Origin: Escherichia coli
GTDB lineage: Bacteria > Pseudomonadota > Gammaproteobacteria > Enterobacterales > Enterobacteriaceae
Assembly: GCF_003991155.1 (NCBI RefSeq)
Contig: NZ_CP031295.1
Strand: one strand, 5' to 3'
Length of the DNA: 64,000 nucleotides
The position numbers are program-made. This document shows, piece after piece, positions 42,001 through 60,000 of this stretch. The first letter of the stretch is position 1. Each line of letters opens with the position of its first letter.

Positions 42001-45000
42001 CGTAACTCCCGCGTCCTGTGTATCACGTGAGTGACAACACCAAAAATACAGATGTTTTCCGGATACAGTGTGCGGAATTCCGGGCTGTCTGAAACCGGCT
42101 CCAGTGCCGGGCGTGGGCGCAACAGCAGTCGTTTGACGGTGAACTCACCGTCGATCTCAGCGATAACGATGTCCCCGTGTTGTGGTTTCTCGGCCCTGTC
42201 CACTACCAGCAGATCACCATTCTGCACGCCAGCCTGGTTCATCGATTCACCGCTGGCGCGCAGAAAGAAGGTGGCTGCAGGTCTGCTGATGCAATAGCTG
42301 TTCAGATCCAGTTCCTGCTCAGCATAATCAGTGGCAGGCGAAGGAAAACCGGCCTGGCAACGATCGGCAAACAACGGTCGCACGTAACTGTCATCGCCTG
42401 AAGGGTCAGCCGGACGGTGATAAACGGTACTCATGCTGCAGGCAGCCAGCTGTCGTCCTGCCAGATTTCTTCCAGCAGAGACAGGATACGTTCTTTATCC
42501 TTGTCGTTGCGGGCTCCTGTGACAGATACAGACGGGGCGCTGCCCTGGTCAATACGCAGCCAGATTTCCGGGTAGTGTGGTTTCAGACGTTGTTCGATTT
42601 CATTCTGTAGCGCCTGAAGTGTGCCTGATTTGAGGTTTTTTGTGCTCTGGCGGTCGAAAAGAATTTCAATGCGGATCATGTTCTCATCTCCCTTTTTTAT
42701 TGCTGTATGTATATACAGTATTCTAATAACTGAATCCACACACAGTCAAATGTCATTATTGTGACTAAAAAACGCTCAATTCTCTGAGAGTGTGGCTGTA
42801 TGCCTGCTGTGGACTGCTGTGTCCAGCTTATCCACAGCATTTTGCGCACGGTTCTGTGAATAAAATACCTGGTTACCCAGGCCGTGCCGGCACGTTAACC
42901 GGGCTGCATCCGATGCAAGTGTGTCGCTGTCGCCGGCCTCCTCACCCGGTCACGTTTCGTCGTTCCTCCTCCACGCGCTGCGGCTTCGGGGCCGCACCTG
43001 CATTCGTATGCGGTCGCCCGGTTACAGGTGCGGCACGGCCTGATGGAGGCCGCATGTGAGAGGAGAATTCCCATGCCAAACTGGTGCTCGAATCGTATGC
43101 ATTTTTCTGGTGAACCGGCACAGATTGCTGAGATTAAACGACTGGCCAGCGGTGCCGTCACACCGCTTTATCGCCGCGCCACAAATGAAGGTATTCAGCT
43201 GTTTCTGGCCGGAAGTGCCGGACTTCTGCAGACCACTGAAGATGTGCAGTTTGAACCGTGCCCCGGACTGACGGATGCCGGACGTGGTGTTGTATCGCCG
43301 GAGAATATCGCGTTCACCCGCTGGCTGACACACCTGCAGAACGGTGTACTGCTGGATGAGCAAAACTGCCTGATGCTGCATGAACTCTGGCTGCAGAGTG
43401 GTACTGGCCAGCGTCGCTGGGAAGGATTACCGGATGAGGTCAGGGAAACCATCACCGTGCATTTCACCGCAAAAAGAGGTGACTGGTGTGGCTTCTGGAG
43501 TAACGAGGATGTATCGGTGTGGTGGAACCGTCTGTGTGACAATGTACTGCCGGAAAAAACCATGCCGTTTGACCTGCTGACGGTTCTGCCCACCCGCCTG
43601 GATGTTGAAGTGAATGGCTTTAACGGTGGTGTTCTGAACGGTGTTCCTTCTGCGTATCACTGGTATACGGAACAGTATGGCGTGAAGTGGCCTGTGGGGT
43701 ATGAGGTGAATATCAGCCGTCAGGGAGAAAACTTCATTCAAGTGGATTTCGACACGCCGTGGTGTCAGCCGGAAAGCAACGTTGTTGCAGAATTAAGCCG
43801 CCGTTTCGGCTGCACGCTGGAGCACTGGTACGCCGAACAGGGCTGCAATTTCTGTGGCTGGCAGCGATATGAGCGTGGAGAGCTTGTTGATGTGCTGTGG
43901 GGGGAACTGGAATGGTCTTCCCCGACAGATGATGATGAGCTGCCGGAAGTCACCGCGCCGGAGTGGATAGTCGACAAGGTGGCGCATTACGGGGGATGAA
44001 GTATGACGGAGACGGGCGGGCAACCGCCCGTTTCTTTTCCGACAAAGGATGTCGCCGTGCTCCTCTTTTTACTGCGCCGGCTGACGCGGCGCGGCAGGAA
44101 CGCTGCCTGTGGTCAGTGTCCCGCGTCCGGCGGGCACGGGACGGGCGCTTTTACTGCTCCCGGCTGGCACCGGTGACAGTGTACGCCAGCCTGTCGCCCT
44201 TTTCTGATGAACGCCCTTCAAGCCGCTTTCGCGGCATATTCTCGCCGTCAAAAAGACGACGGCTGCGATATTCCACGGTCGGCCTGACCCGTTACCGGAC
44301 GCGGTGAACAGCCCACAGGCAGCGGGGAACGGGCACCACAGGGGTGCCCTCCCGGTGCCCTCTGTAAGAGAAGGAGCGTTGTTATGTCCCGTTTTGTCCT
44401 TGGTAACTGCATCGATGTTATGACGCGTATCCCTGATAACGCCATTGATTTCATATTAACTGACCCGCCATATCTCGTCGGTTTTCGTGACCGTTCCGGG
44501 CGCACCATCGCCGGCGATAAAACCGATGAATGGCTGCAACCGGCCTGTAATGAAATGTACCGCGTACTCAAAAAAGACGCGCTGATGGTGAGCTTCTACG
44601 GCTGGAACCGCGTCGATCGCTTTATGGCCGCCTGGAAAAATGCGGGATTCAGCGTTGTTGGTCACCTGGTCTTCACCAAAAACTACACATCGAAGGCCGC
44701 ATATGTGGGCTATCGCCACGAATGCGCCTACATCCTGGCAAAAGGCCGTCCACGTCTGCCACAAAACCCGCTGCCGGACGTGCTGGGCTGGAAATATTCT
44801 GGCAATCGTCATCACCCGACGGAAAAGCCCGTTACCAGCCTGCAACCGCTGATTGAGAGCTTCACACACCCGAACGCAATTGTGCTGGACCCGTTTGCAG
44901 GCAGCGGCTCAACCTGCGTCGCCGCCCTCCAGTCCGGACGCCGGTATATCGGTATCGAGCTGCTTGAGCAGTATCACCGTGCCGGGCAGCAACGCCTTGC

Positions 45001-57000: not shown

Positions 57001-60000
57001 CAGTGTTGTCCTGTCTGCCGGGCGTACCTTCGGCTCCCGGCTGCCTGGCGGCATCCGGTCGTCAGGCCCGACTCCGACAGGCAGCTGCTGGCGCACCTGC
57101 CAGTCTCCGCCGAACCCGCTGGCGCGGTTTCGGGCTGTCGCTACGGTCCGATGCGTGAAAACCCCTGGCTTGCAGCGACCGTTCCGGTCGCGCCGCCTCT
57201 GTCGCGCCGTGACCTGCGCTCCCGGCATCCCGGCAAAAGGCGCCGGGATGTAAGGCGCAACGCCGTTTCGCAAACCGCGCTTCACGTCGTTGCGGCGGGT
57301 CCCTGCCCGTTGTTGTGTCCGGTGCCATTCACCAGTTTAAGCCCCTGTCGCCGGGGGCATAGACAGCCACAACCGTCTCCGCCAGTCCAGGGGTGAAATG
57401 CACATCCCGCAAAACTTTTTGCCCAGAAGCAGGCAAAAACTTTTGCGGTCTGCCCCCGGACAGTCGTTTCCGGCCGTGGCAGTGATGCCCCATGCGGCGA
57501 AGGTTCTCAAACAGGTGATGGTGAATACCGGAGGGAACAAAAGGCAGGTCCCCGCAAAACGTCAAAACCGCGGCTCCCGAAACTCAACAGATGATGGGGG
57601 CTGAAAACCAGAGAGAGGAGAAAGCAGGATGAGTACCCGAAATATCCACGTTAACACCGCGTCGTACACGCTTCTTGTTGCCGGGAAGAAAAAAAACACC
57701 GGGGAAGAGTGGGACGTCCTGGAATTCAGCAGCCTGACTGAGCTGAAAAAATATCGCAAAAGCCACCCGGAAAAGATGGCCTTCAGTTATAGCTACGCGC
57801 TCAGTCAGGGTGTGGATAAGCAGTTCCGCCATATCAACATTGCGGAAGCCGATCACTTCAAACAGTTCCTGCGTCAGATTAAGCGTGCCGGCCTCGATAT
57901 CCGGGCGATCTGCTGACCGGATGTGATGAATATCCCTCCTGATTGTTGCAATCTTGTTAATGGAGATCGGGGGGATGATATTAAGCGGAAAAATTTTTTA
58001 TTAAATTTATTCTTTCATAAAGGAGTAGCTGTTATGCGATTAGCTTCCCGTTTTGGTCGGTATAATTCCATCCGCCGTGAACGTCCTTTAACGGATGATG
58101 AATTAATGCAGTTCGTGCCTTCGGTATTTTCCGGTGATAAACATGAGTCCCGGAGTGAACGTTATACGTATATTCCAACAATCAATATCATCAATAAGTT
58201 ACGTGATGAAGGTTTCCAGCCATTCTTTGCCTGTCAGAGTCGGATTCGTGATTTGGGACGTCGCGAATACAGTAAACATATGTTACGTCTTCGCAGGGAA
58301 GGGCATATTAACGGACAGGAAGTTCCTGAAATTATCCTGCTTAATTCACATGATGGTTCATCCAGTTATCAGATGATCCCCGGAATTTTTCGTTTTGTCT
58401 GCACAAATGGCCTGGTGTGCGGAAATAATTTTGGCGAAATCCGCGTTCCACATAAAGGTGATATTGTCGGGCAGGTTATCGAGGGAGCGTATGAAGTGCT
58501 CGGTGTCTTTGATAAGGTCACTGATAATATGGAGGCGATGAAAGAAATTCATCTTAACAGTGACGAGCAACATTTATTTGGCAGAGCTGCACTGATGGTC
58601 AGGTATGAAGATGAAAATAAAACGCCAGTGACACCTGAACAGATAATTACTCCCCGTCGTCGGGAAGACAAACAGAACGATCTCTGGACAACCTGGCAGC
58701 GGGTTCAGGAGAATATGATAAAAGGTGGATTATCGGGGCGAAGTGCCTCCGGGAAAAATACCAGGACAAGAGCCATTACAGGTATTGATGGTGATATAAG
58801 AATCAACAAGGCGTTATGGGTGATTGCCGAACAGTTCAGAAAGTGGAAGTCATGATAATATAAGTAAAGCCCCGAAAAAATTTTCGGGGCTTTACTTATA
58901 TTATCATTTTTCGGCATTGCTGTGTCGTCTGATATACCTCAATTTCATCAACCGGATTTCCGGTTGTCTGTAAATATTGTGCCCGCGAAAAATGGTCTGG
59001 CAGGAGGCTGCACAGTTACCGGGTATATATAAGATGGGTTCCCGCTTCGCGGGGCTTCGGCCAGTCAGTATTGTCACTCATATGATATTTTTGTGTGTGG
59101 CCTTCCATGCCGCTTTTGCGGCATAACCGGTATCTGACAATGTCTGTAAGATTAATTGTTCTGCACGCTGTTAATTTCCGGAAGTGATTTCTTCGTGGCC
59201 GGAAGTCGGATACCTTTACTGCTTTTTATCCCAGTATAAATCCGGTAAACATCTGATGCGTAGGCAAGACGTCTCTGGTTCTGGCGTTCGGTTTTCCTGA
59301 ATCCGGCATTGTATGCACCAACGGCCTCCCAGGTGACGCCCCATTTTTTAAATGCTATTGCCAGATAATAAGCACCGGTATAAATGTTCATGCAGGGATC
59401 TGTTGTCAGATGTTCTGGCTTAATTCCGTAGCGGGCCAGTTCGTTAAAATGCTGGGAATCTACCTGCATCAGTCCGCTGCCATATCCCGTTACCGGATTA
59501 ATACCGATGGCATTAACCCGGTAACGGGATTCTTGCCATGATATTGCTCTCAGTAAATCAGGATCTATTTTGTAATCCCGGCCTGCAAGATCAAAGCAAT
59601 CAGTGGCCTGGCAGATCTCATTTATAAACATCAGGCAGATGGCTAACATCCATTTTTTCATTTTTCCACCTCTGGTGACTTTATCCGTAAATAATTTAAC
59701 CCACTCCACAAAAAGGCTCAACAGGTTGGTGGTTCTCACCACCAAAAGCACCACACCCCACGCAAAAACAAGTTTTTGCTGATTTTTCTTTATAAATAGA
59801 GAGTTATGACAAATTAGTTCTTCTTGCTCTCTTTGTGATATTTAAAAAAGCGGTGTTGGCGCAGCTACAACACCGCGCCGACACCGCTTTTTAGGGGTGG
59901 TACTGACTATTTTCATAAAAAACATCATCTTATATTAGGGGTGCTGCTAGCGGCGCGGTGTGTTTTTTTACAGGACGCCCCTGGGGGCGCTGCTAGCGGT

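What the first reader, a model, noticed from the sequence alone, without database searches (positions are those of the whole stretch)
43073..58855. Leading-region gene island next to oriT: many uncharacterised ORFs beside known anti-SOS and anti-restriction functions
Between impCAB and oriT, all on the strand expressed from the entering single strand, lie ssb, psiB, psiA, hok/mok/sok, two orphan methyltransferases, an ArdB/KlcA-like gene and a ParB-like nuclease-domain gene. Interleaved with them are at least ten ORFs with good ribosome-binding sites and no assignable function (43073-43999, 45068-45289, 45303-45737, 45788-46564, 47453-47875, 47872-48063, 49098-49328, 49380-50741, 52782-53042, 57629-57916, 58034-58855). 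Plasmid leading regions are established hotspots for anti-defence genes, so these are the most plausible carriers of undescribed function in the window.
Basis: partly seen in the sequence, partly recalled or inferred. Interest (0 to 1): 0.7.

Follow-up and report, generated by a model that had tools for sequence, protein, structure and literature searches.

The report
Standard F-plasmid leading region, known unknowns
This is the ordinary "leading region" of an F-type resistance plasmid, the first DNA to enter a new host during mating; it is nearly identical in thousands of sequenced plasmids, and its roughly ten function-unknown genes are real but already catalogued as unsolved.

Summary
Window 42740-59761 is a canonical IncF leading region. 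At least 5000 plasmid records match it, the best at 99.8%. Shared proteins are 92-99% identical to plasmid F.

An exact F nic site lies on the minus strand at 59745-59761. The entering strand is therefore the template for all 19 plus-strand genes.

All eleven listed ORFs are real genes. Ten show dN/dS of 0.07-0.31. The eleventh, YgeA, has full-length homologues down to 46% identity.

None gained a function here. Pfam gave only DUF1281, DUF1380 (two copies), DUF3560, DUF905 and DUF932. NCBIfam, PADLOC and PDB sequence searches added nothing. A confident DUF932 model (pLDDT 94) has no characterised structural relative.

The island has six units, each behind a long hairpin in the transferred strand: three Frpo copies, one ssp2-like, one ssp3-like and one ssp2 paralogue. 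Published work already shows transient expression from such single-strand promoters. It also lists these families as leading-region-enriched and uncharacterised, and assigns the ParB-like gene (HerB) to host reprogramming.

Small additions:
- a probable extra promoter before DUF1281;
- an antisense RNA over the third Frpo operon's first gene;
- several database "hypothetical proteins" that are hairpin DNA, not genes.

Verdict: already known, low interest.

The parts
42877..43043 (-). Hairpin in the transferred strand upstream of the DUF1281 gene. Candidate extra single-strand promoter, a paralogue of the ssp2 (class 2) element.
   Evidence: The minus strand of 42740-43096 folds with z = -4.05. 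A 73-nt block is 74% identical to the ssp2-like distal arm (E 9e-6) and includes TTGCAT-N15-TAACGT against TTGCAT-N15-TAAGAT. The stem is almost invariant in five plasmids while its flank varies. It is 96% identical to plasmid F. Promoter activity is inferred, not shown.
43073..43999 (+). DUF1281 / Api92-like protein, 308 aa (yfdA / yubB family); function unknown.
   Evidence: PF06924 8e-48 plus PF18406 3e-14. PDB 2IJR 'hypothetical protein Api92' 2.5e-45. dN/dS 0.24. The F copy is frameshifted.
44092..44359 (-). ssp3-like (class 3) single-strand promoter hairpin upstream of methyltransferase I.
   Evidence: Fold z = -6.15. 96.6% identical to the F segment upstream of F's only leading-region methyltransferase. 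Two compensatory pairs in five plasmids. The RefSeq ORF 43996-44307 lying in it has dN/dS 1.05. The class 3 promoter is described in PMC12672017.
44384..45067 (+). Orphan N6-adenine DNA methyltransferase, 227 aa; the F-type counterpart of M.EcoGIX.
   Evidence: NF010253 3.3e-151. PF01555 8.9e-38. DPPY motif at residue 27. 93.8% aa identity to F. Single-strand specificity is taken from PMC7736820 and was not tested here.
45068..45289 (+). 73-aa protein, no Pfam family (phrog_4830).
   Evidence: phrog_4830 1e-36. Substitutions by codon position 3/0/9, dN/dS 0.14. 95.9% aa identity to F.
45303..45737 (+). DUF1380 protein, 144 aa, acidic (pI 4.7).
   Evidence: PF07128 6e-51 over the whole model. 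dN/dS 0.31. pI.
45788..46564 (+). 258-aa protein (YchA family; yffB in F); no Pfam family.
   Evidence: phrog_8919 7e-139. 413 homologues, the 120 listed all at 83% identity or more. dN/dS 0.24. 92.6% aa identity to F.
46709..46943 (-). ssp2-like (class 2) single-strand promoter hairpin upstream of klcA/ardB.
   Evidence: Fold z = -4.69. 95.7% identical to the F yffB-yfgB intergenic region where ssp2 was mapped (10.64898/2026.01.09.698686). At least 90% identical in at least 5000 plasmids, with no annotated feature under the match in most listed records.
46981..47406 (+). KlcA/ArdB anti-restriction protein, 141 aa (yfgB).
   Evidence: PF03230 7.8e-25. 97.9% aa identity to F. dN/dS 0.12.
47453..47875 (+). 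Distant DUF1380 paralogue, 140 aa, very acidic (pI 4.3).
   Evidence: PF07128 E 0.004. phrog_9024 8e-6. dN/dS 0.29.
47872..48063 (+). 63-aa protein whose start overlaps the previous stop (ATGA); no family.
   Evidence: Substitutions by codon position 1/2/9, dN/dS 0.14. 98.4% aa identity to F.
48225..48880 (-). Frpo-type (class 1) repeat, copy A; 115-bp hairpin at 48540-48855.
   Evidence: Three-copy direct repeat, mean identity 92%. Fold z = -8.7. Hairpin limits. 92.7% identical to F Frpo2.
49004..49103 (-). AS-pc01 antisense RNA covering the Shine-Dalgarno sequence and start codon of the 76-aa ORF.
   Evidence: Rfam RF02875, 98.9 bits against a gathering score of 79. Sigma-70-like TTTACA-17-TGnAACAAT at 49138-49110 and a terminator at 49027-49007 on the minus strand.
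49098..49328 (+). 76-aa basic protein (pI 11.9); no family.
   Evidence: Substitutions by codon position 2/0/5, dN/dS 0.14, from few changes. Absent from F.
49380..50741 (+). DUF3560 protein, 453 aa (ydbA family).
50789..51352 (+). Small class I SAM methyltransferase, 187 aa, with an NPPF motif.
   Evidence: PF05175 5e-5. Weak Erm/KsgA/PrmC matches. NPPF at residue 119. dN/dS 0.15. Substrate unknown.
51524..52191 (-). Frpo-type repeat, copy B (position of Frpo2/ssp1b); 130-bp hairpin at 51839-52166.
   Evidence: Fold z = -13.2. Hairpin limits. 95% identical to F Frpo1 and 88% to F Frpo2.
52213..52752 (+). Plasmid SSB.
   Evidence: NF010292 2.7e-114. 96.6% aa identity to F.
52809..53042 (+). 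DUF905 protein, 77 aa (yfjA / yubL).
   Evidence: PF06006 2.9e-29. PDB 2HJJ YkfF 3.9e-17. dN/dS 0.19. YfjA was shown to be made transiently in transconjugants (PMC9849209).
53107..55065 (+). ParB-like YfjB = HerB, 652 aa.
   Evidence: TIGR00180 1.1e-17. GGRRL motif at residue 91 and 93.9% aa identity to F YfjB. Function taken from PMC13370423.
55120..55554 (+). PsiB, SOS inhibitor.
   Evidence: NF010255 1.7e-83.
55551..56270 (+). PsiA.
   Evidence: NF010258 3.5e-126.
56376..56708 (+). hok/mok/sok (flm) type I toxin-antitoxin: mok 56492-56704, hok 56550-56708.
   Evidence: Rfam sok RF01794, 88.9 bits. Hok peptide [52 protein letters not shown].
56951..57608 (-). Frpo-type repeat, copy C (position of Frpo1/ssp1a); hairpin at about 57263-57586.
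   Evidence: Fold z = -11.7. 96.6% identical to F Frpo1.
57629..57916 (+). YgeA / YubO, 95 aa.
   Evidence: 97.9% aa identity to F. Found in 3038 plasmid records, full length down to 46% identity. Deleting ygeA in F cut transfer to 3.9% (PMC9849209).
58034..58855 (+). YgeB / YubP, DUF932, 273 aa.
59152..59742 (-). Lytic transglycosylase (ygfA / gene X), opposite orientation.
   Evidence: IagB-like SLT match 7.5e-33. RefSeq annotation.
59745..59761 (-). oriT nic sequence.
   Evidence: Exact match to GTGGGGTGTGGTGCTTT on the minus strand.

Best explanation
The region is the leading region of an F-like (MOBF/MPF_F) conjugative plasmid and works by zygotic induction.

**Proposed mechanism**
1. The relaxase nicks the minus strand at 59745-59761, and that strand enters the recipient 5' end first.
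2. Before the complementary strand is made, six stretches of the incoming strand fold into long imperfect hairpins. These mimic double-stranded promoters, and host RNA polymerase transcribes the downstream genes from them.
3. When the complementary strand is synthesised the hairpins disappear and expression stops.

**The six units**
1. A class-2-like hairpin, then DUF1281.
2. ssp3-like, then methyltransferase I, the 73-aa ORF, DUF1380 and YchA.
3. ssp2-like, then KlcA/ArdB, the DUF1380-like ORF and the 63-aa ORF.
4. Frpo copy A, then the 76-aa ORF, DUF3560 and methyltransferase II.
5. Frpo copy B, then SSB, DUF905, HerB, PsiB and PsiA. hok/sok follows.
6. Frpo copy C, then YgeA and YgeB (DUF932).

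**What the products do**
- The known products protect or establish the plasmid: methylation of single-stranded DNA, inhibition of type I restriction, SOS suppression, ssDNA coating and host reprogramming.
- The eleven unknown ORFs are co-transcribed passengers of these early units. They most likely act in the same short window, but their biochemistry is unknown.

**Shown versus inferred**
- Shown here: anatomy, orientation, homology to F, hairpin potential and purifying selection.
- Taken from the literature: promoter activity of the F and pESBL homologues.
- Inferred: activity of copy A and of the DUF1281 hairpin on this plasmid, and any function of the unknown ORFs.
For: - Megablast found at least 5000 plasmid records, 894 covering at least 80% of the region, best identity 99.8%. 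The records are typed IncF, MOBF, MPF_F.
- Direct comparison with plasmid F (NC_002483) gave 92-99% aa identity for 14 shared genes and 95-97% for the hairpin regions.
- The exact nic site is on the minus strand.
- There are three ~660-nt repeats. The transferred strand folds far better than shuffled sequence: z = -11.7, -13.2 and -8.7 for the three repeats, and -6.15, -4.69 and -4.05 for the other three intergenic regions.
- ssp3-like has two compensatory pairs.
- The DUF1281 hairpin shares a promoter-like block with ssp2-like, and its stem is almost invariant.
- All the genes are under purifying selection, while ORFs lying in the hairpins are not.
- Literature:
  - Class 1-3 ssDNA promoters with mapped start sites in pESBL, conserved in F (PMC12672017).
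  - Four ssDNA-promoter operons in F, and ssp2 acting as a replication roadblock (10.64898/2026.01.09.698686).
  - ssDNA-specific M.EcoGIX (PMC7736820).
  - HerB (PMC13370423).
Against: - No expression data exist for this particular plasmid.
- I did not locate the -35/-10 boxes of the class 1 hairpins with confidence.
- The published work on F counts four operons, not five or six. Nothing published in the searched library assigns a promoter to the DUF1281 gene. The DUF1281 hairpin has the weakest fold score (z = -4.05), and its stems show no covariation because they hardly vary.
- The similarity between the DUF1281 hairpin and ssp2-like is short: 73 nt at 74%.
Confidence: 0.9

Rival explanations
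1. At least one of the eleven uncharacterised ORFs is an anti-defence protein with an undescribed mechanism, for example an inhibitor of a restriction, CRISPR, BREX or abortive-infection system.
For: - The ORFs sit in early, ssDNA-promoter-driven units next to KlcA/ArdB and two orphan methyltransferases.
- Two DUF1380-type proteins and DUF1281 are acidic, pI 4.3-4.7, as DNA mimics often are.
- Leading regions are statistically enriched in anti-defence genes (PMC11541004).
- Loss of the ssp2 unit lowers F transfer into non-isogenic hosts 21-fold or more (10.64898/2026.01.09.698686).
Against: - No match to any anti-restriction or anti-CRISPR Pfam family apart from KlcA itself.
- No informative structural match for DUF932 or DUF3560.
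- The ssp2 phenotype is attributed to ArdB.
- The only recently solved neighbour, HerB, is not anti-defence (PMC13370423).
Confidence: 0.35
2. The unknown ORFs serve establishment rather than anti-defence. They would handle the incoming single strand, prime or time complementary-strand synthesis, or adjust host physiology, as SSB and HerB do.
For: - Deleting ygeA lowered F transfer between isogenic K-12 strains from 93% to 4%, where no defence barrier exists. ygeB could not be deleted alone (PMC9849209).
- HerB sets a precedent (PMC13370423).
- DUF932 has invariant His, Cys, His and Glu residues that suggest an enzyme or a metal site.
- DUF932 is the most strongly constrained gene in the island, dN/dS 0.07.
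Against: - No fold or sequence link to any DNA-processing enzyme.
- Deleting Frpo2, and with it the expression of its whole unit, had no effect on F transfer efficiency (PMC9849209).
Confidence: 0.35
3. Some of the listed ORFs are chance reading frames in GC-rich DNA, or decaying remnants with no function.
For: - The region is 55-61% GC and carries many long mechanical ORFs on both strands.
- Several RefSeq 'hypothetical proteins' here are indeed non-coding.
- The F copy of DUF1281 is frameshifted.
- The three smallest ORFs and YgeA rest on few substitutions.
Against: - Ten of the eleven show clear third-position bias, dN/dS of 0.31 or less, and no stops or frameshifts in five diverged plasmids.
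- YgeA is conserved full length down to 46% identity and was seen as a GFP fusion (PMC9849209).
- Six of the ORFs match Pfam families.
Confidence: 0.05

Closest known systems
Leading region of plasmid F (NC_002483, 53.8-66.2 kb)
   Same: - Same gene order and orientation from the methyltransferase to oriT.
- 92-99% aa identity for 14 genes.
- The same ssp3, ssp2, Frpo2 and Frpo1 elements at 95-97% identity.
   Different: - This plasmid carries an extra unit between the 63-aa ORF and ssb: Frpo copy A, AS-pc01, the 76-aa ORF, DUF3560 and methyltransferase II.
- Its DUF1281 gene is intact, whereas the F copy is frameshifted.
- Window copy A is closest to F Frpo2, and window copy B is closest to F Frpo1. 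This fits loss or gain of the unit by recombination between repeats.
IncI1 leading regions (pESBL, ColIb-P9, R64) with six ssDNA-promoter operons
   Same: - Three class 1 (ssi/Frpo) promoters, two class 2 and one class 3.
- ssb-psiB-psiA, klcA/ardB and an M.EcoGIX-type methyltransferase (PMC12672017).
- The count and classes of hairpins found here match that layout.
   Different: - In pESBL the second class 2 promoter drives ardA. Here the class-2-like hairpin precedes a DUF1281 gene, and there is no ardA.
- I did not compare sequences with pESBL directly.
Anti-defence islands of plasmid leading regions (Samuel et al., Nature 2024, PMC11541004)
   Same: - Clustered anti-restriction, methyltransferase, SSB, SOS-inhibitor and toxin-antitoxin genes on the strand templated by the T-strand, with Frpo promoters.
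- Flanked by a umuDC-like operon on the other strand.
- The unknown ORFs here are that paper's enriched families 2, 3, 7, 10, 11, 14, 27 and 28.
   Different: Nothing essential. This is one of the commonest instances of that class.
DUF932, DUF905 and antirestriction genes of E. coli cryptic prophage-like islands (CP4-57 / CP4-6: yfjQ, ykfF, yfjX)
   Same: - DUF905 matches the solved YkfF protein, PDB 2HJJ, 3.9e-17.
- UniProt names listed for DUF932 in PMC11541004's table include YafZ-like and CP4-57 prophage proteins.
   Different: Those copies are chromosomal, and their context was not examined here. The gene assignments are from my own knowledge.

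Membership tests
IncF (MOBF) plasmid leading region | Lies next to the oriT nic site, on the side transferred first | tested here: met
   The exact F nic sequence is on the minus strand at 59745-59761, with traM, traJ and traY on the other side.
IncF (MOBF) plasmid leading region | Genes oriented so that the transferred strand is their template | tested here: met
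   All 19 credible genes from 43073 to 58855 are on the plus strand, and the transferred strand is the minus strand. The SLT gene and impCAB are opposite, as in F.
IncF (MOBF) plasmid leading region | Contains the ssb, psiB, psiA and hok/sok (flm) core | tested here: met
   NCBIfam hits above the curated cut-offs, the Hok peptide and Rfam sok.
Class 1 single-strand promoter (Frpo / ssi) | Sequence homology to F Frpo1/Frpo2, at the positions upstream of ygeA and ssb | tested here: met
   Copies C and B are 96.6% and 95% identical to F Frpo1, and copy A is 92.7% identical to F Frpo2. The B-to-C spacing of 5427 bp matches the 'about 5 kb' reported in PMC9849209.
Class 1 single-strand promoter (Frpo / ssi) | The transferred strand folds into a long stable stem-loop | tested here: met
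   z = -11.7, -13.2 and -8.7. Unbranched stems of 115-130 bp.
Class 1 single-strand promoter (Frpo / ssi) | -35 and -10 boxes reconstituted in the stem, and transcription from single-stranded DNA only | not testable with these tools
   I did not place the boxes with confidence. Activity needs in vitro transcription or 5' RACE.
Class 2 single-strand promoter (ssp2) | Homology to the F element between yffB and yfgB (ardB/klcA), with a hairpin in the transferred strand | tested here: met
   46565-46980 is 95.7% identical to F 8340-8755. Fold z = -4.69.
Class 2 single-strand promoter (ssp2), for the DUF1281-upstream hairpin | Sequence and structure similarity to ssp2 | tested here: inconclusive
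   A 73-nt distal-arm block is 74% identical (E 9e-6), with matching TTGCAT-N15-TAA..T. Fold z = -4.05. The stems are invariant, so there is no covariation. No start-site data exist.
Class 3 single-strand promoter (ssp3) | A hairpin immediately upstream of the M.EcoGIX-type methyltransferase, homologous to the F element | tested here: met
   96.6% identical to F 5782-6166. z = -6.15. Two compensatory pairs.
KlcA/ArdB anti-restriction proteins | Pfam Antirestriction domain (PF03230) | tested here: met
   7.8e-25 over residues 45-141. 97.9% aa identity to F YfgB.
KlcA/ArdB anti-restriction proteins | Inhibition of type I restriction in vivo | not testable with these tools
   Reported for the R64 ArdB homologue and inferred for F yfgB (10.64898/2026.01.09.698686).
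M.EcoGIX-type single-strand-specific methyltransferase | [quoted passage not shown] | tested here: met
   PF01555 8.9e-38, NF010253, DPPY motif.
M.EcoGIX-type single-strand-specific methyltransferase | Direct sequence identity to M.EcoGIX, and SAY methylation of single-stranded DNA | not tested
   No M.EcoGIX sequence was at hand. Homology is stated for the F gene in PMC12672017.
HerB (YfjB) ParB-like host reprogrammer | Orthology to F YfjB, with a ParB N-terminal CTP-binding motif | tested here: met
   93.9% aa identity over 652 aa and a GGRRL motif. TIGR00180 1.1e-17.
Known anti-restriction or anti-CRISPR families, for the eleven unknown ORFs | A significant match to ArdA, ArdC, Ocr, Acr or other named families | tested here: not met
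   Pfam returned only DUF families. NCBIfam gave no meaningful hit. PADLOC gave none. PDB sequence search gave only two 'hypothetical' entries. No dedicated anti-CRISPR library was available.

The most novel reading that the evidence does not exclude
Three readings remain open.

1. One or more of the co-transcribed unknown genes could encode an undescribed activity needed in the first minutes after entry. The strongest candidate is the YgeA/YgeB pair next to oriT. YgeB (DUF932) is a confidently modelled fold with no characterised relative and invariant His, Cys, His and Glu residues.
2. On this plasmid the DUF1281 gene may form an additional zygotically induced unit driven by an unreported ssp2 paralogue.
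3. The AS-pc01 antisense RNA has a conventional promoter that needs the complementary strand. It may therefore shut off the third Frpo unit once the plasmid is double-stranded.
Probability: 0.3. Interest if true: 0.55.

Novelty: already known. Interest (0 to 1): 0.22.

Why it matters
F-like plasmids are a main vehicle of antibiotic resistance in Enterobacteriaceae, and the leading region decides whether a newly arrived plasmid survives. The functions of about ten very widespread, strongly conserved early genes remain an acknowledged gap. This window adds no new element to that problem, because the same genes, promoters and hypothesis are already in the literature.

What this analysis adds:
- a corrected gene map, showing which annotated ORFs are real;
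- one candidate extra promoter;
- one antisense regulator placed in context;
- the negative result that DUF932 and DUF3560 cannot be assigned by fold comparison.

Tried and rejected
**Family and sequence searches**
- NCBIfam on the ten unknown ORFs gave nothing meaningful.
- PHROGs returned only 'unknown function' families.
- PADLOC gave no hits.
- A PDB sequence search of all the unknown ORFs concatenated found only Api92 (2IJR) and YkfF (2HJJ), both deposited as hypothetical proteins.
- A DUF932 profile against PDB sequences gave no hit.

**Structure comparison**
- DUF3560 model (pLDDT 74.6): only coiled-coil and helical-bundle matches, which are uninformative.

**Not pursued or uninformative**
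- YchA (258 aa): the listed homologues are all at 83% identity or more. That was too shallow for a useful model, so I did not fold it.
- Literature searches by DUF name and by F gene names found no functional study beyond those cited.
- Accession AP001918 was not in the collections; NC_002483 was used instead.
- I considered the 'ArdA' label that one published table attaches to the YchA family. Pfam finds no ArdA domain here.
- I could not place -35/-10 boxes in the class 1 hairpins convincingly.

Full report
**What is there**

The stretch from about 42740 to 59761 is the leading region of an F-like conjugative plasmid.
- Megablast of 43000-59000 against the plasmid collection hit the 5000-record ceiling. 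894 records cover at least 80% of the query, and the best are 99.8% identical. Most are from Escherichia, Salmonella, Klebsiella and Shigella.
- A representative record is typed IncFIA/FIB/FIC, MOBF, MPF_F. It is annotated with the same genes in the same order.
- I fetched plasmid F itself (NC_002483, locus L006). The 14 shared genes are 92-99% identical at the protein level, and the intergenic elements are 95-97% identical.

**Orientation**

- The F nic sequence GTGGGGTGTGGTGCTTT occurs exactly once, on the minus strand at 59745-59761.
- traM, the traJ leader and FinP lie just beyond it.
- The minus strand is therefore the transferred strand, and it enters with the low-coordinate side first.
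- All credible genes from 43073 to 58855 are on the plus strand, so the incoming strand is their template.
- The lytic transglycosylase gene (59152-59742) and impCAB (40726-42739) face the other way, as they do in F.

**Known genes**

| Gene | Evidence |
|---|---|
| SSB | NF010292, 2.7e-114 |
| PsiB | NF010255, 1.7e-83 |
| PsiA | NF010258, 3.5e-126 |
| ParB-like | TIGR00180, 1.1e-17 |
| Methyltransferase I | NF010253, 3.3e-151; PF01555; DPPY motif |
| KlcA/ArdB | PF03230, 7.8e-25 |
| Methyltransferase II | weak class I SAM match; NPPF motif |
| Hok | 52-aa peptide read directly |
| sok | Rfam RF01794, 88.9 bits |

Corrected coordinates: SSB 52213-52752, DUF905 52809-53042, ParB-like 53107-55065, psiB 55120-55554, hok 56550-56708.

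**Are the eleven unknown ORFs genes?**

The DNA is 55-61% GC and full of mechanical ORFs on both strands, so length alone proves little. I compared each ORF with five related plasmids that differ by 1-10% and counted substitutions by codon position.
- Ten of the eleven show clear third-position excess, no stops or frameshifts, and dN/dS between 0.07 (DUF932) and 0.31 (DUF1380).
- Known genes in the same test give 0.09-0.25.
- The RefSeq 'hypothetical' 43996-44307 gives 1.05.
- Four ORFs lying inside the repeats give 0.7-1.4, three of them with stops and four with gaps.
- YgeA (57629-57916) had only eight changes, which is inconclusive. tblastn finds it in 3038 plasmid records, full length down to 46% identity. 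A YgeA-GFP fusion has also been observed (PMC9849209).
- The three smallest ORFs (73, 63 and 76 aa) rest on 7-12 substitutions each, so the support is real but thin.
It has an AGGAG Shine-Dalgarno sequence and gives 308 aa, the length of phrog_37043. It also fits the Api92 alignment.

**What the unknown ORFs are**

- Pfam assigns DUF1281 plus its C-terminal ferredoxin-like domain, DUF1380 (strong for 45303-45737, weak for 47453-47875), DUF3560, DUF905 and DUF932.
- Five ORFs have no Pfam family: the 73-, 258-, 63-, 76- and 95-aa proteins.
- NCBIfam, PADLOC and PHROGs add no function.
- Only DUF1281 (Api92, 2IJR) and DUF905 (YkfF, 2HJJ) have solved relatives, both deposited as hypothetical proteins.

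*DUF932 (YgeB).*
- The family is very large: 5590 clusters at 50% identity.
- A 110-sequence alignment shows invariant H82, C123, N125, H140, E226 and G231.
- The AlphaFold2 model is confident: pLDDT 94, pTM 0.89.
- DUF932 is therefore its own fold family. The conserved His/Cys/His/Glu set suggests a metal site or an active site, but I could not inspect the coordinates.

*DUF3560.*
- The model is moderate, pLDDT 74.6.
- It consists of a small N-terminal alpha/beta domain, long helices that make up the Pfam domain, a small beta domain and a disordered tail.

*YchA (258 aa).* All 120 listed homologues are at least 83% identical, so I did not model it.

**How the island is organised**

Three direct repeats of about 660 nt lie at 48225-48880, 51524-52191 and 56951-57608, with 92% mean identity.
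- Folded as single-stranded DNA, the transferred strand of each forms a 115-130-bp stem-loop.
- The folds are far more stable than shuffled sequence: z = -8.7, -13.2 and -11.7.
- Copies B and C sit upstream of ssb and ygeA and match F's Frpo elements at 95-97%. These are the Frpo2/ssp1b and Frpo1/ssp1a promoters of the literature.

Three other intergenic regions also fold well on the transferred strand.
- 44000-44383 (z = -6.15) is the ssp3 position upstream of the methyltransferase. It shows two compensatory pairs.
- 46565-46980 (z = -4.69) is the ssp2 position between yffB and yfgB. It is at least 90% identical in at least 5000 plasmids, with no annotated feature under the match in most listed records.
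- 42740-43096 (z = -4.05) lies upstream of DUF1281.
  - It shares a 73-nt block with the ssp2-like distal arm, 74% identical, E 9e-6.
  - That block includes TTGCAT-N15-TAACGT against TTGCAT-N15-TAAGAT.
  - Its stem is almost invariant among five plasmids, while the adjacent flank varies.

The island therefore reads as six units, each a hairpin followed by tightly packed genes. Several gene pairs have overlapping or abutting stop and start codons.

**What is published**

[quoted passage not shown] Deleting Frpo1 or Frpo2 abolishes this. Deleting ygeA cut transfer from 93% to 3.9%, and ygeB could not be deleted alone (PMC9849209).
- RNA-seq of early transconjugants defined six induced operons in pESBL. 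It mapped start sites for three classes of ssDNA promoter and found classes 2 and 3 conserved in F upstream of the KlcA and M.EcoGIX homologues (PMC12672017).
- F has four such operons. ssp2 also stalls complementary-strand synthesis and prolongs early expression. Loss of ssp2 reduces transfer into non-isogenic hosts (10.64898/2026.01.09.698686).
- M.EcoGIX methylates single-stranded DNA at SAY sites (PMC7736820).
- YfjB is HerB, a CTP-binding ParB-like protein that binds the host chromosome and rewires metabolism (PMC13370423).
- Samuel et al. (PMC11541004) showed the enrichment of anti-defence genes in leading regions. Their Supplementary Table 1 lists the following among the largest leading-region-enriched families, marked uncharacterised:
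  - DUF905 (family 2);
  - DUF932/YubP/YgeB (3);
  - DUF1380 (7);
  - YchA (10);
  - YfcA (11);
  - YcjA/YcgC (14);
  - DUF1281 (27);
  - DUF3560 (28).

**How this plasmid differs from F**

- It has an extra unit absent from F: Frpo copy A, the 76-aa ORF, DUF3560 and methyltransferase II.
- Its DUF1281 gene is intact, whereas the F copy is frameshifted.
- Window copy A is closest to F Frpo2, and copy B is closest to F Frpo1. This is what a deletion, or an insertion, by recombination between repeats would leave.
- Breakpoints in other plasmids fall at about 44042 and 48501, at or in the hairpin elements.
- With six hairpins of classes 1, 1, 1, 2, 2 and 3, this region resembles the pESBL layout more than the F layout.

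**Small additions from this analysis**

- The DUF1281-upstream hairpin is a candidate ssDNA promoter. It is not described in the papers I could read. Confidence is moderate, about 0.5.
- Rfam finds AS-pc01 at 49004-49103 on the minus strand, 98.9 bits.
  - It has a sigma-70-like promoter at 49138-49110 and a terminator at 49027-49007.
  - It covers the ribosome-binding site and start codon of the 76-aa ORF, the first gene of the copy A unit.
  - Its template is the plus strand, which does not exist until the complement is made.
  - I infer that it can act only after conversion to double-stranded DNA, as a second off-switch. This is untested.

**Verdict**

None of the eleven ORFs could be given a function, and none proved unusual beyond what is already recorded. 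The novelty class is 'already known'.

Noticed in passing
window 49004-49103 (minus strand), with 49110-49138 and 49007-49027: The Rfam AS-pc01 antisense RNA has its own sigma-70-like promoter and terminator. It overlaps the Shine-Dalgarno sequence and start codon of the 76-aa ORF that opens the third Frpo unit. Its template strand exists only after complementary-strand synthesis, so it may silence that unit once the plasmid is double-stranded.
   Followed up: partly
window 43996-44307, 48425-48670, 51504-51731, 51972-52187, 57398-57604: ORFs annotated as 'hypothetical protein' in RefSeq records, or listed mechanically, lie inside the hairpin or repeat elements. They show dN/dS of 0.7-1.4, most with gaps and some with stops in related plasmids. 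They are probably not genes.
   Followed up: yes
window 48225-48880, 51524-52191, 56951-57608, compared with L006 10175-10643 and 15563-16032: The three Frpo repeats look like recombination junctions. F lacks exactly the block between copies A and B. Window copy A is closest to F Frpo2, while copy B is closest to F Frpo1. Alignment breakpoints in other plasmids fall at about 44042 and 48501.
   Followed up: partly
L007 34745-35749; also hits H17, H19, H28, H42 and H44: Related plasmids carry insertions in or beside these hairpin regions. In p2GS3-tetX4 an IS110-family element sits between the hok region and ygeA. IS421, IS1, ISEc32 and a group II intron (ltrA) occur elsewhere. The hairpins may be preferred insertion targets.
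   Followed up: no
L006 4856-5781 (plasmid F): The DUF1281 (yfdA) gene of plasmid F is frameshifted after about 165 codons, while the window copy is intact. This may explain why work on F counts only four early operons.
   Followed up: yes
window 58034-58855 and 58001-62000: The DUF932 gene has 44% GC (GC3 41%), against 50-61% for the rest of the island. The oriT-traM-traJ stretch is 36-44% GC. The oriT-proximal module may have a different origin from the rest of the leading region.
   Followed up: no
window 40726-42739 (minus strand): The impCAB / umuDC-like operon (Y-family polymerase, UmuD-like, DinI-like) borders the island and faces away from it. [quoted passage not shown]
   Followed up: no
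window 56376-56552 (plus strand): The Rfam 'sok' model matches the plus strand, the same strand as hok and mok, although Sok RNA should be antisense to the hok mRNA leader. This is probably a property of how the Rfam family was built. I did not resolve it.
   Followed up: no
L002 2583-4779 (pWI1-incFII): A related IncFII plasmid carries a TIR-domain protein next to an N1pC/P60 cysteine hydrolase between repA and parM. This could be a defence-type cargo pair. It is unrelated to the window.
   Followed up: no
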